Below are positions 21,376 through 34,269 of a stretch of DNA of 64,000 bases, piece after piece. The position numbers and the translations under genes were made by a program. A model generated the notes under the pieces. The model was not told where the DNA came from and made no database searches. It was given only the letters and a program-made list of their open reading frames with translations. Position 1 is the stretch's first letter; each line of letters opens with the position of its first letter. Source of the DNA: Alphaproteobacteria bacterium (lineage in GTDB: Bacteria; Pseudomonadota; Alphaproteobacteria; UBA6615); assembly GCA_022449545.1 (NCBI GenBank), contig JAKUPN010000009.1:6764-70763 (forward strand), read 5' to 3'.

Positions 21376-22332
21376 ATGTCTCTACCAAATTCATTTCTTA
21401 ATCGTTTATCTCTACCCGTGGTTGCTGCTCCAATGTTTCTTGTATCAGGCCCTGAAATAGTTATCTCATGTTGTAAAGCTGGAATAGTAGGAACTTTTCC
21501 TGCCCTTAATCAACGATCAACTGAAGGACTGAATGAATGGATAGAGCAAATTAAAGATTCGACAGACGATAATGATGCACCATTCGGAATTAATTTAATT
21601 GTTCATAAAACTAATCCACGCGTTGAAGCAGACCTTCAATCTTGTGTTCATCACAAAGTACCGCTGATTATAACTTCATTGGGAGCGGTCGCAGATTTAG
21701 TTGATGAAGTGCATTCCTATGGAGGGCTTGTGTTTCATGACGTAACCACTGTTCGTCATGCCCAAAAAGCGACAGAAGCAGGTTGTGACGGATTAATACT
21801 TGTTTGCGCCGGAGCAGGAGGACACGCTGGAATATTAAGTCCGTTCGCCCTACTGCCTGAAATAAGAAAATTCTTTGAAGGAACAATATTACTTGCTGGA
21901 TCACTTTCAGATGGTCGTTCCATTGCAGCAGCTCAAATGCTAGGTGCTGACCTAGCCTATTTAGGGACCAGATTTATAGCCACAAAAGAAAGTCATGCAG
22001 CAGAAAAGTTTAAACAAATGATAGTGGCTAGCTCTGCAAAAGACATCATTCATACCCCTGCTATATCCGGAATACCCGGAAGCTTTCTTAGGCCTAGCAT
22101 CGTAGCCGCAGGTTTCAATCCAGACCAGCTTCCTGAGAAAGGCACAGATCAGGCTGAGTTTGGAGACAATATGCAAGAGGAACGAAAAGCCTGGCGAGAT
22201 GTTTGGTCAGCAGGACAAGGCGTAGGCCAAATAGATGATATCTTAAATGTAGCCGAACTAGTTAAAAAACTTAAATCAGAATACAGACAAAGTATCGCAG
22301 ACTTCGATCTGACTATTTCAAATTACAGTTAA
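21376..22332 (+). CDS. Nitronate monooxygenase family FMN-dependent oxidoreductase
   Basis: APMFLVS, GAGGHAG, GTRFIAT, WSAGQGVG. Confidence 0.9.
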   Translation: MSLPNSFLNRLSLPVVAAPMFLVSGPEIVISCCKAGIVGTFPALNQRSTEGLNEWIEQIKDSTDDNDAPFGINLIVHKTNPRVEADLQSCVHHKVPLIITSLGAVADLVDEVHSYGGLVFHDVTTVRHAQKATEAGCDGLILVCAGAGGHAGILSPFALLPEIRKFFEGTILLAGSLSDGRSIAAAQMLGADLAYLGTRFIATKESHAAEKFKQMIVASSAKDIIHTPAISGIPGSFLRPSIVAAGFNPDQLPEKGTDQAEFGDNMQEERKAWRDVWSAGQGVGQIDDILNVAELVKKLKSEYRQSIADFDLTISNYS

Positions 22333-22384: not shown

Positions 22385-23041
22385 TTATTTTTCTGGAGGA
22401 ACTTCATTTGGGTGCAGTTTGTCAGGCTGTAAATAAGGAGCTGTCATTTCAAATATTTCTTGAGTTCTGCAATACCTAGGACCACCTAAGCGTCCAACTG
22501 GAGCTAGTTTATAAGGGTCTATATATTTATCCTCAATAATTAAATCTTCTCGAACATGCCAACAGAGTATTTTACCAATAACTAGATGCGTAACCCAGTC
22601 ACTTCCAAAATCTATAATTCTATCAAACTCACATTCCATAGCTACCGGTGCATTGGCAATACGAAAAGCGTCAACGAAGTCAGATGATACTGTTTCCAGA
22701 TTTCCTTTTGAAAACTCATCCTCATCAGGAGAAAAGTTTGCTGAAGTTGCGTTCATTTTTTCTTCCCAGCCATTCACAACTGTATGAATAACATACCCTT
22801 TCGTATCAGTAATATTCTTCGCTGTATCCTTCATACGACGCTCTCTTTCACCAACCGAAATAGATACCATTGGTGGATAATGAGATACCATTGTAAAAAA
22901 ACTAAACGGAGCTAGATTAGGAACACCTTTATTACTAATAGAACTAACCCAAGCAATGGGTCTAGGAACAATAGAACCAATCAACATGCGATACGCCTGT
23001 TGATGATCAATCATGTCAGCCTTAAACGTACGATAACTCAT
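22385..23041 (-). CDS. Flavin reductase-like FMN-binding protein; start ATG 23041 overlaps the upstream TGA (ATGA)
   Basis: VPRPIAWVSS, NLAPFSFF, KDT, GRLGG. Confidence 0.9.
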   Translation of the reverse strand: MSYRTFKADMIDHQQAYRMLIGSIVPRPIAWVSSISNKGVPNLAPFSFFTMVSHYPPMVSISVGERERRMKDTAKNITDTKGYVIHTVVNGWEEKMNATSANFSPDEDEFSKGNLETVSSDFVDAFRIANAPVAMECEFDRIIDFGSDWVTHLVIGKILCWHVREDLIIEDKYIDPYKLAPVGRLGGPRYCRTQEIFEMTAPYLQPDKLHPNEVPPEK

Positions 23042-23691
23042 TTTACTTCCCACCCATTAATTTCTAATGTCGTTATACCCTTACGTAACTCTTTCATCAT
23101 CTCCAGTTCACGAGCATCTCGATCTTTTGCTGAAGTAATCACTTCTTTTATTCTGTCATTAGGTATGACTACAACTCCATCGAAATCTCCTATCACTAAA
23201 TCACCTGCCTCGACAATTACATCCCCAATTGGCAGTGATTCTGCTATAGCACCCTTAAATTCTGGATTTTTTTCAGTTCCTCGCATACAAGTACCCCTTG
23301 AAAAAACTGGAAAACCCATTTCAATCATTGCCTTTCCATCTCGAACACAACCATTAATGACCAAACCAGCGACACCTCGTGATTGAGCAGATACAGACAT
23401 AACTTCTCCCCAATAACCTGCCTCATAAAATCCGCTCATATCAGCCACCAAAATATCGCCTGGACGAGCTTCAGCTAAAGCATAATGTAGCCATAAATTA
23501 TCTCCTGGCGCCCCTTTAACAGTAAAAGCAGGGCCACACAAACCTAACGAAGAATTCAGAGGTTTTATTGCGGATGGTAATGATCCAATTTTTCCAGCGG
23601 CTTCATGAATTGACGAAGTAGAAATTGATCTCGCTTCATCAATTATTTCTGGAGTCGGTCGTTTAAAGTCTGTAGAAAAAATACTACCCAT
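23038..23691 (-). CDS. RraA/HMG-CHA aldolase family (LigK/GalC-like 4-hydroxy-4-methyl-2-oxoglutarate aldolase)
   Basis: GPAFTV, GDNLWLH, YWGEVM, GCVRD, GDLVIGDFDGVVV. Confidence 0.88.
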   Translation of the reverse strand: MGSIFSTDFKRPTPEIIDEARSISTSSIHEAAGKIGSLPSAIKPLNSSLGLCGPAFTVKGAPGDNLWLHYALAEARPGDILVADMSGFYEAGYWGEVMSVSAQSRGVAGLVINGCVRDGKAMIEMGFPVFSRGTCMRGTEKNPEFKGAIAESLPIGDVIVEAGDLVIGDFDGVVVIPNDRIKEVITSAKDRDARELEMMKELRKGITTLEINGWEVK

Positions 23692-23825: not shown

Positions 23826-25055
23826 ATGACTGGCATACTATCTGGACTACGTATAATAGAAGGTTCAGCCTTCGTTGCCGCCCCTCTTTGCGGAATGACC
23901 ATTGCACAAATGGGGGCAGATGTAATTCGCTTTGATCTCCCAAGCGGAGGAATAGATTATCGTCGATGGCCAAAATCAGATAATGGAACAAGTATCTATT
24001 GGGCAAGTATGAATAAGGGAAAAAGATCTTTAGCTGTCGATTTTCGTCGTCCAGAAGGACAAGAGTTATTAACAGAACTTATTACTGCCCCAGGTAAAGA
24101 AAACGGTATTTTATCTACAAATTTTCCAATGAGAGACTGGCTTGATTATGAGACTTTAAAGAAAAGACGAGCCGATCTGATAGCCATGAATATAATTGGC
24201 AACCCTGATGAAAGTGTAGCTGTCGACTATACTGTGAACGCAGCGGTGGGTTTTCCTTTAGTAACAGGTTCAGGTAACAATAAAAGTCCTGTAAATCATG
24301 TTTTTCCTGGGTGGGACGTAGCCACAGGGTATGCGGCTGCGATGGGTGTTTTAGCTGCTGAGAGATATCGAAACAGAACTGGCAAAGGCCAACAAATAAA
24401 GCTTTCTCTTTCAGATGTTGCCTTCTCAACTGTTGGTAACCTTGGATATATTGGGGAAGTCCAAATTAATAAAGAAGAACGACCAAATATTGGAAACAGC
24501 ATATATGGAAGTTACGGCGAGGATTTTGCTACAAAGGACGGGCGAAGGGTAATGATTATTGCTGTGTCTGTTTCACAATGGAGGAAACTATTAGATGCTA
24601 CTGAGTGTCACGATTCCATAAGCAATGTTGAAAAAGAGATGGGTCTAGACTTCAACCTAGAAGAACATCGATTTGAAGCACGCAGAGAAATAGGAAGTAT
24701 TATTGGTCCTTGGTGTAAGAGTCGTAACCTTAGTGATATACGCAAGATTTTTGAGGAAAATAACGTCTGCTGGGGACCATTCCAAAGTTTCAGTCAAATG
24801 GTAAATGAAGATCCCAGATGTTCTACAAAAAATCCTTTATTTGCCGAAATGGACCAGCCCGGGTTGGGAAAATATTTAATTCCAAGGATCCCTCATCAAT
24901 TCAGTGAAATCGAGCATAAACATACAAGAGCTCCTCGATTAGGAGAGCACACAATCCAGATACTTGCTGACGAAATCGGTCTGAGTCAGAGTAAGATTGG
25001 TGAACTACATGATTCAGGGATTATATATGAAGCAGAAAATGAAAAAAAACGCTAA
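23826..25055 (+). CDS. mct: Mesaconyl-CoA C1-C4 CoA transferase (2-methylfumaryl-CoA isomerase), family III CoA transferase
   Basis: GILSGLRIIEGSAFVAAPLCGMTIAQMGADVIRFD..GGIDYRRWP, TNFP, VDYTVN and NHVFPGWD match my recollection of Chloroflexus Mct rather than generic CaiB; adjacent to meh. Confidence 0.85.
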   Translation: MTGILSGLRIIEGSAFVAAPLCGMTIAQMGADVIRFDLPSGGIDYRRWPKSDNGTSIYWASMNKGKRSLAVDFRRPEGQELLTELITAPGKENGILSTNFPMRDWLDYETLKKRRADLIAMNIIGNPDESVAVDYTVNAAVGFPLVTGSGNNKSPVNHVFPGWDVATGYAAAMGVLAAERYRNRTGKGQQIKLSLSDVAFSTVGNLGYIGEVQINKEERPNIGNSIYGSYGEDFATKDGRRVMIIAVSVSQWRKLLDATECHDSISNVEKEMGLDFNLEEHRFEARREIGSIIGPWCKSRNLSDIRKIFEENNVCWGPFQSFSQMVNEDPRCSTKNPLFAEMDQPGLGKYLIPRIPHQFSEIEHKHTRAPRLGEHTIQILADEIGLSQSKIGELHDSGIIYEAENEKKR

Positions 25056-25890
25056 AATAAGTTATGGTGACTGGACACCATATGTAGAGAGTTCAACAGA
25101 ACAAATTGACCTAACTCAGGTCAGAAAACTCGCAGGGGTTCTAAATATTGATGAGACCGCTTTTGAGGTTGAAAACGATCTCCCTCCTATGTGGCATTGG
25201 TTGTTCTTTTTACATCGCGCAGCCACAGAAAATATTGGGGAAGATGGGCATCCAAAACGGGGAGGCTTTTTCCCGCCTATTGAACTACAGAGACGCATGT
25301 TTGCAGGAGAACAAATCATTTTTCACTCTCCACTAAAAATAGGACTTCCAGCTACTCGCACTGGAACAATAATCAACCTAGAAAAAAAAGTAGGACGAAA
25401 AGGGCCCATGATCCTTTTGAGCGCCCATTACCAGATTAAACAGAATGAAGTACTTTGCATCGAAGACACTCATAACATTGTTTACTTAGATAATAATGAT
25501 CCTACTCCGACGCCTGGGGGAGATTCTTATGTGCCCCCAAACAATAAATGGTATAAGAAACACAAAGCAGATCCAGTATTTTTATTCCGCTACTCTGCTC
25601 TAAGTTTTAACAGTCATAGAATACACTATGATAGAGATTATGCAGTTAATGTAGAAAAGTACCCGGGACTTATAGTCCATGGTCCACTTACCGCACTTTT
25701 ATTATCTGAACTTGTAAGGTCTAAAATAAATAAACCGATGAAGTCATTTAGTTTTCGTGGTCAGGCACCCATATTTGAACCTTGGCCCTTTTATGCAATA
25801 GGAACTCCCTCAAAAGATGGCGAAATCAATCTTGAGGCCGTTCGTAATGACTCGGTCGTCGCTATGACAGCAACAGCCAAATTTGATTAG
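25039..25890 (+). CDS. meh: Mesaconyl-C4-CoA hydratase (double hot-dog, Meh/Ich family); likely start ATG 25039
   Basis: LPPMWHWLFF, DGHPKRGGFFPP, RRMFAG, LFRYSALSFNSHRIHYD, VHGPL. Confidence 0.82.
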   Translation: MKKNAKISYGDWTPYVESSTEQIDLTQVRKLAGVLNIDETAFEVENDLPPMWHWLFFLHRAATENIGEDGHPKRGGFFPPIELQRRMFAGEQIIFHSPLKIGLPATRTGTIINLEKKVGRKGPMILLSAHYQIKQNEVLCIEDTHNIVYLDNNDPTPTPGGDSYVPPNNKWYKKHKADPVFLFRYSALSFNSHRIHYDRDYAVNVEKYPGLIVHGPLTALLLSELVRSKINKPMKSFSFRGQAPIFEPWPFYAIGTPSKDGEINLEAVRNDSVVAMTATAKFD

Positions 25891-25899
25891 GTAATAATA

Positions 25900-27585
25900 A
25901 TGATTATTTCCCAGCATTCTCTCAATCCAATTGAATCAAAATTGGCACTAAAATTATGTCAAGAGGCAATGGTTTCTGCTGAGTCACATTTGCAGAATTT
26001 AAAATCATCAACAAGTGGTCTGGCTACTAAAGGTGGTAAAATTGATTCTGAATTTCTTCTAAGCAATCAATATGCAGTGCACGGATTTGCTTGGATGGCA
26101 ACCTATATCATTGCCTTAAAGCAATTATTATCTTGGGCAGAAAAGCTTAGTTCCGATGAACGATTAGGAGATTTGGAAACTTTAATTTTACAATGTGGTT
26201 TTGGCGGCTACTTGAAGCAGTTACGTCATGGAATCGCCATGAGCCAAGATGAGTTTGCTAGACCTGGTGATCTTGGGATTGAAAGGACTGAGGATTTATA
26301 TACCTCCACTATAGATCAGCTTATCAGTCAAGGAGATAGTATCTATGTCAGGTCGCAAATCGCTAAAATTCTCTGTGAAAATATTGGCACAGGTAATTTT
26401 GGAGCCCTAGGATTAAACGAAACTTACACTATAATTCGTGAACAGTTTTCTAGATTCTCTGATGATCGAATAGCACCAGCTGCTCAGAGATGGCATATTA
26501 ATGATGAATTGATTCCGTTAGAAATAATTGAAGAAATGAGTGATTTAGGCGTTTTTGGTCTCACGCTCCCTGAAGAGTATCAAGGACTGGGAATGGATAA
26601 AGTATCTATGTGCGTTGTTACCGAAGAATTATCACGTGGATACATAGGTGTGGGTTCCTTAAGTACTAGATCAGAAATTGCAGCAGAGCTTATTAGGTTT
26701 AACGGTACTGGCGAACAAAAAGAACATTATTTAGCAGCAATATCTTCTGGAAAAATTCTTCCCACCGCAGTTTTTACGGAGCCGAACCATGGTTCAGATT
26801 TAGCTCACATAAGAACACGCGCAGAACGAAATGGTAATTCTTACGTGATAACGGGAAATAAAATATGGATTACACATGGAGCGCGATCGGATCTAATGAC
26901 ATTACTTGCTCGAACCAATGCTGACGATTCAGGGTATGGCGGACTAAGCATGTTTTTAGCCGAAAAACCCAGAGGAAGCATTGAAAATCCCTTCCCGGCT
27001 AAAGGAATGAGTGGAAGTGAAATTAAAGTCCTCGGGTATAGAGGAATGAAAGAATATGAAATTGCCTTCGACGGATTTGAAATTAGTAAAACTTCTCTTT
27101 TAGGGGGAGCTGAAGGAAATGGTTTTAAGCAGCTTATGTCTAGCTTTGAAACTGCACGTATTCAAACTGCTGCTCGAGCAGTTGGCGTAGCACAGAATGC
27201 GTTAGAGTTATCATTGAAATATGCAAATGATCGATCTCAGTTTGGCAGTAGTATAGTGAACTTTGACCGTGTTGCAGGAAAAATAGGTTGGATGGCAGTA
27301 GAAACTATGATTGTTCGACAATTGACTTACTTTGCTGCTCGTCAGAGAGACGCTGACCAAAGATGTGACATAGAAGCAGGTATGGCAAAATTATTGGCTG
27401 CCAGAGTTGCATGGTCAAATGCAGATAATGGCCTCCAAATACACGGTGGTAATGGTTACGGAGAAGAGTTTGTTATTTCTAGGTTACTTTGTGATGCTCG
27501 TATTCTAAATATATTTGAAGGTGCCGCTGAAATTCAAGCTGGCATCATTGCTCGTGGACTTCTTAATCGTCCGAATAGGCCGTAA
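25900..27585 (+). CDS. mcd: (2S)-methylsuccinyl-CoA dehydrogenase
   Basis: 561-aa ACAD with N-terminal extension (HGFAWMATY), EELSRGYIGVGSLSTRSEIA, LPTAVFTEPN, GSEIKVLGYRGMKEY, ILNIFEGAAEIQ; these are Mcd-type signatures. Confidence 0.88.
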   Translation: MIISQHSLNPIESKLALKLCQEAMVSAESHLQNLKSSTSGLATKGGKIDSEFLLSNQYAVHGFAWMATYIIALKQLLSWAEKLSSDERLGDLETLILQCGFGGYLKQLRHGIAMSQDEFARPGDLGIERTEDLYTSTIDQLISQGDSIYVRSQIAKILCENIGTGNFGALGLNETYTIIREQFSRFSDDRIAPAAQRWHINDELIPLEIIEEMSDLGVFGLTLPEEYQGLGMDKVSMCVVTEELSRGYIGVGSLSTRSEIAAELIRFNGTGEQKEHYLAAISSGKILPTAVFTEPNHGSDLAHIRTRAERNGNSYVITGNKIWITHGARSDLMTLLARTNADDSGYGGLSMFLAEKPRGSIENPFPAKGMSGSEIKVLGYRGMKEYEIAFDGFEISKTSLLGGAEGNGFKQLMSSFETARIQTAARAVGVAQNALELSLKYANDRSQFGSSIVNFDRVAGKIGWMAVETMIVRQLTYFAARQRDADQRCDIEAGMAKLLAARVAWSNADNGLQIHGGNGYGEEFVISRLLCDARILNIFEGAAEIQAGIIARGLLNRPNRP

Positions 27586-27597
27586 TGAATCATTATT

Positions 27598-28398
27598 ATG
27601 AATAAGACCGAAATATTAATTTTTGATACAGTTACCAAACTAGGACCTGAATCCTCTAAGAATGTTGTAATAGCTGGATCACACGGTGGTGTATACGCCG
27701 GCTTTGAAGCCGCCACTGCACAAGTTCGTGGCATTATACTTCATGACGCTGGAGTAGGTCTCGATAATGCGGGAATTGGATCTTTAAAATATTTAGATAA
27801 ATTAGAAATAGCAGCTGCAGTTGTAGACTACCGCACAGCAGTTATTGGTGATGGTCAAAGTCTAGCTAATAACGGTAGAATCAGTTTTGTAAATAATGCC
27901 GCCGCAAAATCAGGATGTGCCGTTGGTCAAACCTCAATAGAATGTGCAAATGAAATGAAATTATCTCCTTTTATTTCAATGCCAGTGCCAGTTTATGAAG
28001 AAGCGCGTTTTACTATTCGAGATGGAAGTGATGGGATTATAGTAAGAGGATGCGATTCAGTTTCTTTAGTAAAAGAAGAAGATGAAGATACAGTGGTCAT
28101 AACTGCATCACATGGTGAAGTTCTTGCATCCTCACCAACGTGGGGAAACCGTCCTTTGGTTTTAGCAGCTGTGTTCAACGATGCTGGCTCTAATTCGGTT
28201 AGCCGCTTACCAGACCTGGACAAGCTAGGCATCCCGGCTGCCACGGTTTCATATTCAAGCGCAAAGATTGGCGATGCGAGATCAACATATAATGATGGTA
28301 TAATCTCTCATTTTAATGAGAGTGCTATAGATTTAAATCTCAAAGTTGGTATGACTACTATCGAATTTGTCGACGAGATTAATAAAAATACTAGCTAA
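27598..28398 (+). CDS. Conserved-looking hypothetical protein made of two tandem homologous domains
   Basis: Both halves carry SHG...(H/N)DAG...LDKL.I.AA.V.Y..A.IGD...G.IS..N..A...VG.T.IE; 12 nt downstream of mcd. Confidence 0.8.
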   Translation: MNKTEILIFDTVTKLGPESSKNVVIAGSHGGVYAGFEAATAQVRGIILHDAGVGLDNAGIGSLKYLDKLEIAAAVVDYRTAVIGDGQSLANNGRISFVNNAAAKSGCAVGQTSIECANEMKLSPFISMPVPVYEEARFTIRDGSDGIIVRGCDSVSLVKEEDEDTVVITASHGEVLASSPTWGNRPLVLAAVFNDAGSNSVSRLPDLDKLGIPAATVSYSSAKIGDARSTYNDGIISHFNESAIDLNLKVGMTTIEFVDEINKNTS

Positions 28399-29371
28399 AG
28401 AATGATTTTGATTTATTTATTATTTGTTCTTCAGATATCATATATTCAGCCTCGAGAGGTATTGAAAAAGGTATAGGGATACGAGCCCCACCCATACGCT
28501 TCACAGGTGCTTTGAGTATATTGAATAAATGTTCGCTTACTTCCGAAGAAATTTCACCGCCGAATCCACCTACCTTCACTGCCTCATGCACAATCATGAG
28601 TCGGCCTGTTTTTTTAACTGAATTAAAAACGGAATCTTTATCCCAAGGCCATAGTGTCCTTAAATCAATCACTTCAACAGATATACCTTCATCAGCAAGG
28701 CTTAAAGCGGCCTTCTTGACAACGTTAACCATAGCGGACCAGGTTACGATTGTAAGATCACTGCCAGTAAGTACTTTTCTAGCTATGCCTAGAGGAATAG
28801 GATCTTAATCATTTTATTCACCTTCTCCTTCAGCACCCCATAACCCTTTGTGCTCCATATAAACAACGGGATCGTCACAACGAATTGCAGCCTTAAGCAA
28901 ACCACGATTATCAGCAGGAGTTGCTGGCGTTACAACTACTAGACCTGGTACGTGTGTGTACCAAGCCTCGGGAGACTGGGAGTGTTGAGCGGCTATGCCA
29001 CCCCGAATACCTATGGGCATACGAGCGATCATTGGAACTCTCGCCTGCCCTCCAAACATATAACGAGCTTTAGCAGCCTGATTAACCAGTTCATCGACCG
29101 CACACATTGCAAAGTCAGAAAAGCGTAACTCAGCAATAGGACGGGTACCAGCCAGAGCAGCACCAATTGCCGCCCCCATAATAGTTGCTTCCGAAATTGG
29201 TGTATCGACAATTCTATCAGCGCCAAATTCAGCCTGTAGATCTTTATATTGTCCACCCATACCACCTTCAAATCCTAAATCTTCTCCCAAAGCCCAGACG
29301 GTAGAATCACGTTCCATCTCCTCTTTAAGAGCTAGCCTTGCGGCTTCGGCATAAGTCATCTTTGTCATCAA
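28391..29371 (-). pseudogene. 2-oxoacid/acetoin dehydrogenase E1 beta subunit interrupted by two in-frame TAA codons (pseudogene or sequence error)
   Basis: The two track ORFs are in one frame: ...WGAEGEGE*ND*DPIPLGIARKVLTGSDLTIVTWSAMV...; stops at 28814-28816 and 28805-28807; DTPISE, AQHSQS, EVIDLRTL motifs. Confidence 0.8.
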
Positions 29372-32281: not shown

Positions 32282-33283
32282 ATGAAAGCCAAAAACTCTA
32301 CCAATTATCCTGATCGCATACTAGAAATGTACAAAACAATGACTCTTATTCGTGCCTTTGAAGAGATTGCTGAAGAAGCCTTTGATGCTGGATTAGTTAA
32401 TGGTTCAATTCATCAATATATAGGCGAAGAGGCCATAGGAACGGCAGTATGTGCAAACCTAAAAAGAAGCGATTATATTCTCTCAAATCATCGTGGACAT
32501 GGGCATGCTATAGCAAAAGGTGCTGACCCTGAGGCAATGATGAAAGAACTATTGGGAAGAGAAGGAGGGACAAGTGGCGGCAAAGGAGGATCAATGCACA
32601 TAGCTGACTTTTCTGTTGGAATGTTGGGAGCGAATGGAGTGCTTGCTGACGGCCTAACTATGGGAGTAGGAGCCGCACAAGCTTTAGTTTTAAGAGAAGA
32701 GAACGCAATAGTTGCCGTGTTTGTAGGAGATGGCACAACGAATCGCGGCCCCTTCTACGAGGCTCTTAATTGGGCTATGATTTATAAACTGCCAATTCTT
32801 TTTGTTTGTGAAAATAATACTTATGCATCTTCCACAGCAACACAAACTGTAACCGCTGGACCTGGACCAGTTGCACGCGCAGAAGCTTTCGGCATGCCTG
32901 CTTTTGATGTGGATGGAAACGATGTCTGCGCCGTGGATGAAATAGCTGGCACATTAATTGAAAAAATACGTAATGGTCATGGCCCTCATTTTCTTCACGC
33001 ACGGACTTATCGGATCAAAGGACATATCTCCCGAGATAAAATGCTTTATAGACCAGAGGGGGAAACAGAGGCTCATTTAGTAAATGAACCTCTTCTAAAA
33101 TGCAAAGATTGGATGATTAAAAACGGTATCAAACAAAAGGAAATTGATGATATTAGCAGCATGGCTTATGAGCAAATTAAGGAAGCTCTTGAAGCAGCTA
33201 AGAATGCACCCTTTCCCGACAAAACACTCACCTATACAGATGTGCAGGATCTAGGCAATCCATATCTTGGAGGCAGCTCATGA
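32282..33283 (+). CDS. ThDP-dependent dehydrogenase E1 alpha subunit (second paralog)
   Basis: HRGHGH, GKGGSMH, GDG...ENN, TYRIKGH. Confidence 0.92.
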   Translation: MKAKNSTNYPDRILEMYKTMTLIRAFEEIAEEAFDAGLVNGSIHQYIGEEAIGTAVCANLKRSDYILSNHRGHGHAIAKGADPEAMMKELLGREGGTSGGKGGSMHIADFSVGMLGANGVLADGLTMGVGAAQALVLREENAIVAVFVGDGTTNRGPFYEALNWAMIYKLPILFVCENNTYASSTATQTVTAGPGPVARAEAFGMPAFDVDGNDVCAVDEIAGTLIEKIRNGHGPHFLHARTYRIKGHISRDKMLYRPEGETEAHLVNEPLLKCKDWMIKNGIKQKEIDDISSMAYEQIKEALEAAKNAPFPDKTLTYTDVQDLGNPYLGGSS

Positions 33284-34269
33284 CTAATAACAAAATGACC
33301 CATGCCTCAGCAGTACGTGAAGGACTAGCTGAAGAAATGAGGCGAGATCCATTAGTTTGGGCATTAGGTGAAGATCTAAGCACGGCTCATGGAGGAACAA
33401 GCGCTGATCAATATCGTGGATTAATAGACGAATTTGGAGAAAAGCGAATTGTAAATACGCCAATTTCTGAAAATACTATAATGGGTGCCGCTGTGGGAGC
33501 TGCAGTAGCTGGAACAAGACCCGTTGCAGATTTACGAATGGCCGATTTTGCAATGTGTGCAGTTGACGAACTTGTTAATCAAGCCGCTAAAATTCGATAC
33601 ATGTTTGGTGGACAAGCAAGAGTCCCCCTAGTGGTACGCCAAGCAATAGGAGTACGTAAAGGTGGGGCAGCTCAACACTCACAATCAACAGAAGCATGGT
33701 ATATTCATACCCCTGGTCTAGTAGTTGTAGCTCCCGCAACAGCAGCTGATGCTAAGGGATTGATGAAATCTGCAATACGAGCTGACGACCCAGTTGTATA
33801 TATGGAGCATAAAGATCTTTGGATGGCTGAGGGTGAAGTTTCAGAAGACCCGGAAGAATTAGTCGAAATTGGTAAAGCAAGCATAATGAAATCGGGAAGT
33901 GACCTAACTCTTGTTTCTTGGTCAAAAATGGCTCTACTTTCTCTGGAAGCCGCCAAAATCCTTGAAGTGGATAATATTTCAGTCGAGGTTATAAACTTGC
34001 GCAGTCTCTGGCCCTGGGACAAAGACTTGGTCTATAAATCGGTCTCCAAAACGGGACGTCTCCTAGTGGCACAAGAATCAGTTCAAGTAGCAGGGTTTGG
34101 AGCAGAAATTTCTGCTGACGTGACAGAAAATCTAAATGATCAACTAAAAACTCATGTCCGTCGCATAGGAGCGCCAAGAACTCCTGTTCCTTATGCGGAA
34201 ACAATGGAAAACGAATATCGTGTAACAACAGAACGCATTATTGAAAAAGTAAAAGAACTGATGAGTTAA
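33280..34269 (+). CDS. ThDP-dependent dehydrogenase E1 beta subunit (intact paralog)
   Basis: LGED, NTPISE, NQAAK, AQHSQS, EVINLRSL; ATGA overlap with the alpha gene. Confidence 0.92.
   Translation: MTNNKMTHASAVREGLAEEMRRDPLVWALGEDLSTAHGGTSADQYRGLIDEFGEKRIVNTPISENTIMGAAVGAAVAGTRPVADLRMADFAMCAVDELVNQAAKIRYMFGGQARVPLVVRQAIGVRKGGAAQHSQSTEAWYIHTPGLVVVAPATAADAKGLMKSAIRADDPVVYMEHKDLWMAEGEVSEDPEELVEIGKASIMKSGSDLTLVSWSKMALLSLEAAKILEVDNISVEVINLRSLWPWDKDLVYKSVSKTGRLLVAQESVQVAGFGAEISADVTENLNDQLKTHVRRIGAPRTPVPYAETMENEYRVTTERIIEKVKELMS

What the first reader, a model, noticed from the sequence alone, without database searches (positions are those of the whole stretch)
23826..27585. mct-meh-mcd operon: natural hybrid of the ethylmalonyl-CoA pathway and the 3-hydroxypropionate bicycle
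Seen: three tightly coupled genes (overlap, then a 9-nt gap) with Mct-, Meh- and Mcd-type signatures. Known: Mcd (ethylmalonyl-CoA pathway) makes mesaconyl-C1-CoA, which normally goes to Mch and Mcl. Mct and Meh (Chloroflexus 3-HP bicycle) convert mesaconyl-C1-CoA to the C4 ester and then to (S)-citramalyl-CoA, which is cleaved to acetyl-CoA and pyruvate. Inference: this operon routes methylsuccinyl-CoA to pyruvate plus acetyl-CoA. If ccr/epi/ecm exist elsewhere, the net reaction is acetyl-CoA + CO2 -> pyruvate without ferredoxin-dependent pyruvate synthase. As I recall, the same enzyme sequence forms a module of the synthetic THETA CO2-fixation cycle, so this could be a natural counterpart. 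The simpler alternative is catabolism of methylsuccinate, mesaconate or other C5-dicarboxylates.
Basis: partly seen in the sequence, partly recalled or inferred. Interest (0 to 1): 0.82.

Follow-up and report, generated by a model that had tools for sequence, protein, structure and literature searches.

The report
Natural methylsuccinyl-CoA to citramalyl-CoA operon
A marine alphaproteobacterium carries a compact operon that joins an enzyme known from acetate assimilation to two enzymes known from a green-bacterial CO2-fixation cycle, most likely to burn a branched five-carbon acid to acetyl-CoA and pyruvate rather than to fix CO2.

Summary
Window 23826-27585 encodes three tightly packed genes, with a fourth of unknown function (27598-28398) 12 nt behind them.

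- The first is a close relative of the intramolecular mesaconyl-CoA C1-C4 transferase (Mct).
- The second is an Ich/Meh-type mesaconyl-C4-CoA hydratase.
- The third is a full-length (2S)-methylsuccinyl-CoA dehydrogenase (Mcd). Every substrate-defining residue I checked is conserved.

The CO2-fixing reading is refuted.
- The 96%-complete genome has no crotonyl-CoA carboxylase/reductase (Ccr), no ethylmalonyl-CoA mutase (Ecm) orthologue, no mesaconyl-CoA hydratase (Mch) and no isocitrate lyase.
- None of 24 family relatives has Ccr or Mch, yet 15 of them carry both Mct and Mcd.

With no Mch, mesaconyl-C1-CoA can only leave through Mct. A RipC/Ccl-like lyase elsewhere in the genome co-occurs with the operon and could finish the route to acetyl-CoA plus pyruvate.

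In two other lineages the same genes sit inside catabolic clusters: an itaconate/methylsuccinate-type cluster in Azospirillum rugosum, and an acid-activation cluster in G071. In 301 alphaproteobacterial genomes, Mct occurs in 19 of 31 that have Mcd but no Ccr, against 8 of 87 that have both.

Best reading: an apparently undescribed catabolic route for methylsuccinyl-C1-CoA. It uses the same reaction sequence as the synthetic THETA module. The source of the substrate remains open.

The parts
23826..25055 (+). mct: mesaconyl-CoA C1-C4 (intramolecular) CoA-transferase family, 409 aa
   Evidence: PDB 7xkg E 6e-146 and 8apq E 8e-140; the next family scores E 6e-28. TIGR04253 scores 488.7 bits, below its equivalog cut-off of 725 but about 4 times any other transferase model. 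Asp165, Arg47, Arg75, Asn100/Phe101 and Arg104 of the Roseiflexus enzyme align to D164, R47, R74, N99/F100 and R103. Arg314' aligns to N313 (with passages of PMC9196870).
25027..25890 (+). meh/ich: mesaconyl-C4-CoA (itaconyl-CoA) hydratase type, double hot-dog, about 287 aa; the start may be 25027 or 25039
   Evidence: PDB 8khg/8huc itaconyl-CoA hydratase E 5e-58. It is 49-50% identical to the hydratase beside Mct in Roseiflexus and Caldilineaceae loci L113 and L124. Pfam gives only weak MaoC (E 0.007) and FAS1_DH_region (E 0.16) hits.
25900..27585 (+). mcd: (2S)-methylsuccinyl-(C1)-CoA dehydrogenase, 561 aa, with the N-terminal extension
   Evidence: PDB 6es9 E 1e-195 over residues 16-555. 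PdMCD residues R252, R376, R421, E535, A285, F287, S248, T418, E380 and W318 align to identical residues R257, R381, R426, E540, A290, F292, S253, T423, E385 and W323 (alignment, read against passages of PMC5798300).
27598..28398 (+). orf266: conserved fourth gene of unknown function, with two similar halves
   Evidence: No Pfam, NCBIfam or PDB sequence hit. It follows mcd in 6 of the 18 relative loci fetched, and lies further off in 2 more. AF2 model pLDDT is 82.7. Foldseek finds nothing at E <= 0.001. The best VIA-align hit is 1qw2_A (TA1206, unknown function), Z 7.3, rmsd 2.7, 76 residues.
23038..23691 (-). RraA-like / HMG-CHA aldolase-type gene, divergent neighbour; link to the operon unknown
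   Evidence: PF03737 E 1e-40; NF006731 166 bits, below its cut-off of 179. It lies upstream of mct in 12 of 18 relative loci.

Best explanation
The operon encodes three consecutive steps.
1. Mcd oxidises (2S)-methylsuccinyl-C1-CoA to mesaconyl-C1-CoA.
2. Mct moves the CoA within the molecule to give mesaconyl-C4-CoA.
3. The Meh/Ich hydratase makes (S)-citramalyl-CoA.

A RipC/Ccl-like lyase encoded elsewhere (G000:C1:215238-216095) then gives acetyl-CoA plus pyruvate. The organism lacks Ccr, Ecm and Mch, so this is not part of the ethylmalonyl-CoA pathway and not a CO2-fixing route. It is most likely catabolic, funnelling methylsuccinate, or methyl-branched dicarboxylic acids that end as the C1 thioester, into central metabolism. 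The Pseudomonas-type pathway cannot use that ester.

Basis of each step: the gene identities, the conserved active-site residues, the absence of the alternative enzymes and the co-occurrence patterns are shown by tool results. The substrate specificity of each enzyme, the direction of flux, the role of the lyase and the origin of the substrate are inferred.
For: Enzyme identities and residues:
- See the parts list.

No alternative route for mesaconyl-C1-CoA:
- PF01575 finds only frames of 161 aa or less in the genome.
- A full-length Mch from a Ccr-bearing relative finds nothing in the own genome and 0 of 24 family genomes. It does find the 4 Ccr-bearing genomes.

No ethylmalonyl-CoA pathway or glyoxylate cycle:
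- Ccr is not found in the own genome or in 0 of 24 family relatives.
- No isocitrate lyase is found.

Functional coupling:
- Of 18 relative loci fetched around Mct, 13 hold Mcd on the same strand; in 6 of them Meh lies between the two.
- In the family, 15 of 24 genomes have both Mct and Mcd and 7 have neither. The 2 discordant genomes are 85% and 61% complete.

Last step:
- The RipC/Ccl-like lyase scores 259 bits on NF038242 and E 1e-52 against 3qll.
- It has an orthologue of at least 58% identity in 12 of the 16 Mct-bearing family genomes, plus one partial match, and in 0 of the 8 without Mct.

Catabolic context elsewhere:
- Azospirillum rugosum L118 has CitE-type lyase, Ich-type hydratase, family-III CoA-transferase and a 389-aa ACAD on one strand, with LysR, a DctP binding protein, Mct and full-length Mcd on the other.
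- G071 has ACAD, ADP-forming acyl-CoA synthetase, hydrolase, CaiB transferase, Mct, Meh and Mcd on one strand.

Class-wide sample of 301 genomes (hand tally):
- Mct occurs in 19 of 31 genomes with Mcd but no Ccr, 8 of 87 with Mcd and Ccr, and 10 of 183 without Mcd.

Literature:
- Gonner et al. 2025 (sections 12 and 14 and passages read) call methylsuccinyl-C1-CoA a dead end for C. necator. Their text never mentions Mct.
Against: - No CoA-transferase, ligase, transporter or regulator for methylsuccinate sits next to the operon in this family, so the origin of the substrate is unknown.
- Mct scores below the NCBIfam equivalog cut-off (488.7 against 725). Arg314', proposed from simulations to discriminate the C4 ester, is Asn here.
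- The lyase scores below its cut-off (259 against 375). It is unlinked, and it is not found in 3 of the 16 Mct-bearing relatives (G006, G009, G018).
- 12 of the 31 genomes with Mcd but no Ccr have no Mct, so Mcd has still other contexts.
- 63 of the 80 best Mct loci in the species collection have neither Meh nor Mcd within 8 kb.
- Related genomes are not independent, so the co-occurrence counts overstate the support.
- The genome is 95.9% complete in 47 contigs, so absences are not proven.
- No activity was measured.
Confidence: 0.65

Rival explanations
1. One reading: the operon is the exit of a Ccr-dependent ethylmalonyl-CoA route, giving net acetyl-CoA + CO2 -> pyruvate, a natural THETA-like carboxylation.
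For: The order of reactions equals the THETA methylsuccinyl-CoA module. Methylmalonyl-CoA epimerase is present at 152.6 bits, above its cut-off.
Against: Ccr is not found in the own genome (best 83.6 bits against 378.55) or in 0 of 24 family genomes. True Ecm genes, which lie next to ccr in G034, G025 and G032, are only 35-39% identical to the one spare mutase and differ in their motifs. In the 4 Ccr-bearing relatives, Mcd lies next to or near ccr in three (G025, G032, G034; on a different contig in G028), all four have Mch, and none has Mct.
Confidence: 0.03
2. Glyoxylate assimilation as in the second half of the 3-hydroxypropionate bi-cycle: glyoxylate + propionyl-CoA -> beta-methylmalyl-CoA -> mesaconyl-C1-CoA -> Mct -> Meh -> acetyl-CoA + pyruvate, with Mcd as a side entry.
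For: An Mcl1-type malyl-CoA/beta-methylmalyl-CoA lyase is present (5ugr E 3e-128). Partial bi-cycles of this kind have been proposed for a gammaproteobacterial symbiont (passages of PMC6593406).
Against: Mch, which this route needs, is not found in the own genome or in 0 of 24 family genomes. The route gives no role to Mcd, yet Mcd is the most constant partner of Mct here. Malate synthase G is present for glyoxylate.
Confidence: 0.08
3. In this family the substrate is made by the split B12-dependent acyl-CoA mutase on the same contig. It would act on ethylmalonyl-CoA as a non-orthologous Ecm, or on glutaryl-CoA, whose thioester shift would give exactly 2-methylsuccinyl-C1-CoA.
For: Orthologues of the mutase (79% identity or more) occur in 10 of 24 family relatives, and all 10 carry Mct. 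The Arg that I recall as the carboxylate-binding Arg207 of methylmalonyl-CoA mutase is kept (ARGTWIF). The Tyr before the catalytic His is Ala, which could make room for a larger substrate. The mutase sits in an operon with a CaiB transferase, a crotonase, a 2OG oxygenase and MeaB.
Against: It lies about 60 kb from the operon. None of the 10 genomes checked from other families that have Mct and Mcd but no Ccr has an orthologue (best 42-46% identity), and 4 of those 10 have no mutase hit at all at E <= 1e-90. Six Mct-bearing family genomes also lack it. The reaction is my own chemical reasoning and no such enzyme is known to me.
Confidence: 0.1
4. Salvage or proofreading: the operon clears methylsuccinyl-C1-CoA or mesaconyl-C1-CoA made as by-products of the many promiscuous CaiB-type transferases of this organism, and is not a growth pathway.
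For: The genome holds many family-III CoA-transferases (10 candidates in the first look; two more within or near the window). There is no dedicated transporter or regulator next to the operon.
Against: In Azospirillum rugosum and G071 the same genes sit in clusters with a binding protein, a regulator and activating enzymes.
Confidence: 0.1

Closest known systems
Second cycle of the 3-hydroxypropionate bi-cycle of Chloroflexus/Roseiflexus (Mch-Mct-Meh-Mcl)
   Same: [quoted passage not shown] Identity is about 52% to Roseiflexus Mct loci and 49-50% to the neighbouring hydratase.
   Different: Here mesaconyl-C1-CoA would come from oxidation of methylsuccinyl-CoA by Mcd, not from beta-methylmalyl-CoA by Mch, which is not found. 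There are no Smt genes beside the operon. The host is a heterotrophic alphaproteobacterium.
Ethylmalonyl-CoA pathway (Ccr-Epi-Ecm-Mcd-Mch-Mcl1)
   Same: The Mcd is of the same family and has the same active-site residues as Paracoccus Mcd. It is 59-62% identical to the Mcd of the four Ccr-bearing relatives.
   Different: Ccr, Ecm and Mch are not found. The Mcds of this family form their own clade (13 rows, SH-aLRT 99) apart from those of three of the four Ccr-bearing genomes, in a quick tree only. The Azospirillum Mct-linked Mcd does not join that clade.
Pseudomonas/Cupriavidus itaconate-methylsuccinate cluster (Ict, Ich, Ccl, C4-specific Mcd, Msi; Gonner et al. 2025, PMC12290011)
   Same: [quoted passage not shown]
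   Different: That pathway uses a roughly 380-aa ACAD acting on the C4 ester and needs no Mct. Its authors call the C1 ester a dead end. Here a 561-aa C1-type Mcd plus Mct would open exactly that dead end. No Ict, Msi or Ccl lies in the operon.
Methylsuccinyl-CoA module of the synthetic THETA cycle (Mcd/Mco-Mct-Meh-Ccl)
   Same: The order of reactions is identical (passages of bioRxiv 10.64898/2026.01.16.699985).
   Different: The synthetic module is assembled from enzymes of different organisms and fed by Ccr/Ecm. Here the genes form one natural operon with no Ccr.

Membership tests
[quoted passage not shown] | Sequence groups with characterised Mct and not with intermolecular family-III transferases | tested here: met
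   7xkg E 6e-146 and 8apq E 8e-140, against the best other transferase at E 6e-28. TIGR04253 scores 488.7 bits against 121.6 for the next model.
[quoted passage not shown] | Score above the NCBIfam equivalog cut-off (725 bits) | tested here: not met
   488.7 bits. The model appears to be tuned to close relatives of the Chloroflexi enzymes (my reading).
[quoted passage not shown] | Catalytic Asp165 and Arg47, and CoA-binding Arg75, Asn100, Phe101 and Arg104 (Roseiflexus numbering) | tested here: met
   They align to D164, R47, R74, N99, F100 and R103. Arg314' aligns to N313, and Ser132/Glu133 to V131/A132 (passages of PMC9196870).
[quoted passage not shown] | Intramolecular transfer with no free-acid co-substrate | not testable with these tools
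   Needs an enzyme assay.
Mcd ((2S)-methylsuccinyl-CoA dehydrogenase, EC 1.3.8.12) | N-terminal extension of about 170 aa before the ACAD core | tested here: met
   The ACAD Pfam domains start at residue 174. The alignment to 6es9 covers residues 16-555.
Mcd ((2S)-methylsuccinyl-CoA dehydrogenase, EC 1.3.8.12) | Three arginines for the carboxylate (R252, R376, R421), catalytic E535, and the methyl pocket A285/F287 | tested here: met
   All are identical: R257, R381, R426, E540, A290 and F292 (read against passages of PMC5798300).
Meh / Ich (mesaconyl-C4-CoA / itaconyl-CoA hydratase) | Full-length similarity to a characterised member | tested here: met
   8khg E 5e-58 over residues 12-262. Whether it also isomerises itaconyl-CoA cannot be told.
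Meh / Ich (mesaconyl-C4-CoA / itaconyl-CoA hydratase) | Match to NCBIfam RipB_Ich (NF038241) | tested here: not met
   No NCBIfam hit at E <= 0.01. NF038241 is a 175-position profile on which a full-length Mch scored only 112 bits, so it probably models a different fold type; I did not check what it models.
Ethylmalonyl-CoA pathway | Crotonyl-CoA carboxylase/reductase present | tested here: not met
   Best 83.6 bits against a cut-off of 378.55; 0 of 24 family genomes.
Ethylmalonyl-CoA pathway | Ecm and Mch present | tested here: not met
   There are two mutases: an MCM (1262.6 bits) and a split one 35-39% identical to true Ecm. Mch is not found.
3-hydroxypropionate bi-cycle (second cycle) | Mch plus a trifunctional Mcl alongside Mct and Meh | tested here: not met
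   Mch is not found. An Mcl1-type lyase is present, but on another contig.
(S)-citramalyl-CoA lyase (RipC/Ccl, NF038242) | Score above the cut-off (375 bits) | tested here: not met
   259.1 bits, still the best model for this protein. 3qll E 1e-52. The substrate is untested.

The most novel reading that the evidence does not exclude
In this family the operon may be the lower half of a new B12-dependent pathway. The co-occurring split acyl-CoA mutase keeps the carboxylate-binding Arg and has a Tyr-to-Ala change next to the catalytic His. It would convert glutaryl-CoA (or ethylmalonyl-CoA made without Ccr) into 2-methylsuccinyl-C1-CoA, which Mcd, Mct, Meh and Ccl then take to acetyl-CoA plus pyruvate. 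That would be a non-decarboxylating alternative to glutaryl-CoA dehydrogenase for lysine or glutarate breakdown.
Probability: 0.07. Interest if true: 0.85.

Novelty: new variant of a known kind. Interest (0 to 1): 0.6.

Why it matters
All three enzymes are known, but only from an acetate-assimilation pathway (Mcd) and a CO2-fixation cycle (Mct, Meh). Joined in one operon, in organisms that have neither pathway, they define a route that the literature I could search treats as purely synthetic (the THETA module) or does not consider. The 2025 study of methylsuccinate degradation calls the C1 thioester a dead end.

The combination is not rare. It occurs in 19 of 301 sampled alphaproteobacterial genomes from at least 11 families, and also in Azospirillum rugosum (a species genome in the reference collection) and a gammaproteobacterial MAG.

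It matters in three ways:
- It offers ready-made, co-evolved enzyme sets for synthetic CO2-fixation designs.
- It corrects the habit of reading Mcd as a marker of the ethylmalonyl-CoA pathway and Mct as a marker of the 3-HP bi-cycle in metagenome annotation.
- It points to methyl-branched dicarboxylic acids as substrates of marine heterotrophs.

Tried and rejected
Function of orf266:
- No hit in Pfam, even at E 5, or in NCBIfam or PDB sequences.
- The protein-atlas search gave only hypothetical clusters, with DUF1805 on a minority of members.
- Foldseek against the PDB found nothing at E <= 0.001.
- VIA-align's best hit was 1qw2_A at Z 7.3, which is within the usual background. No function is assigned.

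Other checks that led nowhere:
- The promoter and terminator scan found 15 promoter-like sites against 14.4 expected, which is uninformative.
- No tRNA or Rfam family lies in the window.
- The split E1-beta looked like a recoding site. It is two TAA codons, and 7 relatives have the gene intact, so I read it as a pseudogene.

Corrections and limits:
- My first attempt to read Ecm from locus L041 picked a wrong frame. I redid it properly.
- The careful Mcd tree did not finish in 300 s, so only the quick tree is used.
- From 41 genomes I first thought that Mcd always comes with either Ccr or Mct. The 301-genome sample shows 12 genomes with Mcd and neither, so I dropped the rule.
- An ACAD in the own genome (C5:42230-43375) is 68.6% identical to the short ACAD of the Azospirillum cluster. 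Its neighbours (a TAXI-TRAP transporter, another ACAD, a Zn-dehydrogenase) do not show that it is a C4-type Mcd.

Literature:
- Five full-text searches for a natural Mcd-Mct route listed no paper whose title or abstract start describes one. I opened five of the listed papers (outline, named sections or term passages) and none describes it.
- Supplements were not seen. Supplementary Fig. 3 of PMC12290011 may bear on this.

Full report
**What is there**

The window has about 40% G+C. It comes from a 2.25-Mb, 47-contig genome estimated 95.9% complete. Four ORFs lie head to tail on the + strand:
- 23826-25055 (409 aa);
- a second gene ending at 25890, whose likely start is the ATG at 25027 or 25039, so it overlaps gene 1;
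- 25900-27585 (561 aa), after a 9-nt gap;
- 27598-28398 (266 aa), after a 12-nt gap.

No + strand terminator-like site lies between them, and the promoter scan is at chance level. It did not list the fourth gene.

**Gene 1 is an Mct-family transferase**

- Among solved structures its best matches are the intramolecular mesaconyl-CoA transferases of Roseiflexus (7xkg, E 6e-146) and Chloroflexus (8apq, E 8e-140). The next protein, a succinate-hydroxymethylglutarate CoA-transferase, scores E 6e-28.
- NCBIfam TIGR04253 scores 488.7 bits. That is below its equivalog cut-off of 725, but four times the next transferase model.
- I read the residue-by-residue alignment against passages of Min et al. 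2022 (PMC9196870). Catalytic Asp165 and Arg47, and the CoA-binding Arg75, Asn100, Phe101 and Arg104, are all conserved.
- Arg314', which that paper's simulations tie to binding of the C4 ester, is Asn313 here.
The intramolecular mechanism itself cannot be shown by computation.

**Gene 2 is an Ich/Meh-type double hot-dog hydratase**

- It matches solved itaconyl-CoA hydratase at E 5e-58 over residues 12-262.
- It is 49-50% identical to the hydratase next to Mct and two Smt-like transferases in Roseiflexus and Caldilineaceae loci (L113, L124).
- Pfam sees only faint MaoC and FAS1-dehydratase signals.

**Gene 3 is an Mcd**

- It aligns over residues 16-555 with Paracoccus Mcd (6es9, E 1e-195), including the N-terminal extension that marks this enzyme.
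- Schwander et al. 2017 (PMC5798300, passages) name a set of residues as making the enzyme specific for (2S)-methylsuccinyl-CoA. All are identical here: three arginines for the carboxylate, the catalytic Glu, the Ala/Phe pair that forms the methyl pocket, and their supporting Ser, Thr, Glu and Trp.

**Gene 4 (orf266) has no assignable function**

- It has no family in Pfam, NCBIfam or PDB sequences. It has two similar halves.
- It folds with mean pLDDT 82.7.
- Its best structural neighbour is a Thermoplasma protein of unknown function, at Z 7.3, which is within the usual background.
- It follows mcd in 6 of the 18 relative loci fetched.

**What the rest of the genome says**

| Gene | Result |
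|---|---|
| Ccr | not found (best 83.6 bits, cut-off 378.55) |
| Isocitrate lyase | not found |
| Mch | not found: PF01575 hits only frames of 161 aa or less, and a 348-aa Mch from a Ccr-bearing relative finds nothing |
| B12 mutases | two: a fused methylmalonyl-CoA mutase (1262.6 bits), and a split enzyme (547 + 150 aa) 64 kb from the operon |
| Epimerase | present (152.6 bits) |
| Malate synthase G | present |
| Mcl1-type lyase | present (5ugr, E 3e-128) |
| CitE-like lyases | two; one is best described by the RipC/Ccl model (259 bits, cut-off 375; 3qll E 1e-52) and sits beside an acyl-CoA ligase and an ABC transporter |

True Ecm genes, taken from beside ccr in three relatives, are 35-39% identical to the split mutase. 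They have different motifs: RTYAGH, SRGTYIF and SYH, against RQYSGF, ARGTWIF and GAH in the split enzyme.

The route to pyruvate plus acetyl-CoA remains possible.

**Relatives**

The nearest named record is a MAG titled 'Alphaproteobacteria bacterium MarineAlpha12_Bin1'. Among 24 genomes of the same family:
- Mct is found in 16 and Mcd in 16. Both occur in 15 and neither in 7. The two discordant genomes are 85% and 61% complete.
- Ccr is found in 0 of 24 and full-length Mch in 0 of 24.

The four class-level relatives that do have Ccr all have Mcd and Mch and no Mct; Mcd lies next to or near ccr in three of them (G025, G032, G034) and on a different contig in G028.

Of the 18 loci fetched around Mct, 13 hold Mcd downstream on the same strand, and 6 of those have Meh in between. 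Twelve have the RraA-like gene divergently upstream. Genera without Meh in the operon have a 38-40%-identical homologue elsewhere.

The RipC/Ccl-like lyase has an orthologue (58% identity or more) in 12 of the 16 Mct-bearing family genomes, plus one partial match, and in none of the 8 without Mct.

These genomes are related to one another, so the counts are descriptive and not statistical.

**Beyond the family**

Mct-like genes of about 50% identity or more are very common. They come from Actinomycetota, Chloroflexota, Pseudomonadota and other phyla.

Among the best 80 loci, 63 have neither Meh nor Mcd within 8 kb, and 6 have a full-length Mcd. Four of those 6 are from this family. The other two are Azospirillum rugosum and a gammaproteobacterial MAG. 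Two further 'Mcd' hits in that table are ordinary ACADs at 40% identity.

The Azospirillum locus is the most telling. One strand carries a CitE-type lyase, an Ich-type hydratase, a family-III CoA-transferase and a 389-aa ACAD. Gonner et al. 2025 describe this gene set as the Pseudomonas-type itaconate/methylsuccinate cluster. The other strand carries LysR, a DctP binding protein, Mct and Mcd.

In G071, from another family, one strand reads ACAD, ADP-forming acyl-CoA synthetase, hydrolase, CaiB transferase, Mct, Meh, Mcd. Both are catabolic layouts with activating enzymes.

**Class-wide sample**

I tallied 301 alphaproteobacterial genomes by hand. Mcd is found in 118, Ccr in 93 and Mct in 37.

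| Genome group | Genomes with Mct |
|---|---|
| Mcd present, Ccr absent | 19 of 31 |
| Mcd and Ccr both present | 8 of 87 |
| Mcd absent | 10 of 183 |

The 19 come from at least 11 families. Twelve genomes have Mcd with neither Ccr nor Mct, so the association is strong but not a rule.

A quick tree places the family's Mct-linked Mcds in one clade (13 rows, SH-aLRT 99), apart from those of three of the four Ccr-bearing genomes. The Azospirillum Mct-linked Mcd falls near the Ccr-linked ones, so the pairing seems to have arisen more than once (quick search only).

**How it most likely works**

Mcd makes mesaconyl-C1-CoA. With no Mch, the only enzyme at hand for that product is Mct. Meh then gives (S)-citramalyl-CoA, and the RipC/Ccl-like lyase, or possibly the Mcl1-type lyase, cleaves it to acetyl-CoA and pyruvate.

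Gonner et al. 2025 (PMC12290011; sections 12 and 14 and passages) showed three things about the Pseudomonas/Cupriavidus pathway:
- it uses a short ACAD specific for the C4 ester;
- its transferase makes only that ester;

The operon described here would open that dead end. In Azospirillum and G071, which also carry a short ACAD, the two branches may handle the two regio-esters or the two enantiomers. That last point is inference.

**Where the substrate comes from in this marine family is open**

- No transferase, ligase or transporter lies in the operon.
- The split mutase co-occurs with it in 10 of 10 relatives that have the mutase. It keeps the Arg that I recall as the carboxylate ligand of methylmalonyl-CoA mutase.
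- By my own reasoning, a thioester shift in glutaryl-CoA would give exactly 2-methylsuccinyl-C1-CoA.
- Against this, none of the 10 genomes checked from other families that have Mct and Mcd but no Ccr has this mutase, and four have no mutase hit at all. I keep the idea as the most novel reading, at low probability.

**Is it known?**

- Full-text searches listed no paper whose title or abstract start describes a natural Mcd-Mct-Meh route.
- I opened five of the listed papers (PMC12290011, PMC6593406, PMC8262859, PMC8307300, PMC9196870), by outline, named sections or term passages only. None describes such a route.
- The THETA literature treats the sequence as a synthetic module.
- The library lacks most subscription journals and I could not see supplements, so the claim is limited to those searches.
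That is another AI note and not independent evidence, but it fits what I tested here.

**Verdict**

The enzymes are ordinary members of known families, but their combination and context form a new variant. It is most likely a catabolic route for methylsuccinyl-C1-CoA that mirrors a module designed in the laboratory.

Noticed in passing
window 28391-29371 (- strand): The E1-beta gene of a TPP-dependent dehydrogenase pair carries two in-frame TAA codons three codons apart (GEGE*ND*DP). The same gene is intact in 7 relatives, so it looks like a recent pseudogene or an assembly error. A second intact E1 alpha/beta pair lies at 32282-34269.
   Followed up: yes
G000:C47:about 91900-98000, same contig, outside the window (locus L135:13635-19665): An operon of 2OG-Fe(II) oxygenase, crotonase, split B12 acyl-CoA mutase (547 + 150 aa), CaiB-type transferase and MeaB. 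The mutase is neither MCM (40% identity) nor Ecm (35-39%). It keeps the carboxylate-binding Arg but has Ala where MCM and Ecm have Tyr before the catalytic His. Its substrate is unknown.
   Followed up: partly
loci L054-L128: Mct-like genes of about 50-57% identity to the window's are widespread far beyond 3-HP bi-cycle organisms, for example in Pseudonocardiales, Solirubrobacterales, Acidimicrobiales and Leptospiraceae. Most have no Meh or Mcd within 8 kb. What they do there is unexplained.
   Followed up: no
G000:C33:1-2062 (locus L003): An Mcl1-type malyl-CoA/beta-methylmalyl-CoA lyase lies next to a BhcA-like aspartate-glyoxylate aminotransferase on a 2-kb contig, in a genome without Mch, Ccr or isocitrate lyase. 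It is possibly part of glyoxylate or glycolate assimilation.
   Followed up: no
window 1-64000: The window is dense in paralogous catabolic families: two xanthine-dehydrogenase-type molybdoenzymes, luciferase-like monooxygenase, enolase-superfamily, several SDRs, crotonases, CaiB transferases, and ABC and MFS transporters. This is the profile of a heterotroph living on diverse small organic acids.
   Followed up: no
G000:C5:42230-43375 (locus L159:9228-10376): An ACAD 68.6% identical to the short ACAD of the Azospirillum rugosum itaconate-type cluster lies beside a TAXI-TRAP transporter and a second ACAD. It may be a C4-type methylsuccinyl-CoA dehydrogenase, but this is untested.
   Followed up: partly
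locus L033 (G009:C7:164000-182000): In this relative an Old-Yellow-Enzyme-type flavin reductase sits between the Mct-Mcd pair and the Meh gene. In the window an NMO/FabK-like flavoenzyme (21376-22332) and a flavin reductase (22385-23053) are conserved neighbours. A link to ene-reduction of itaconate or mesaconate is conceivable but untested.
   Followed up: no
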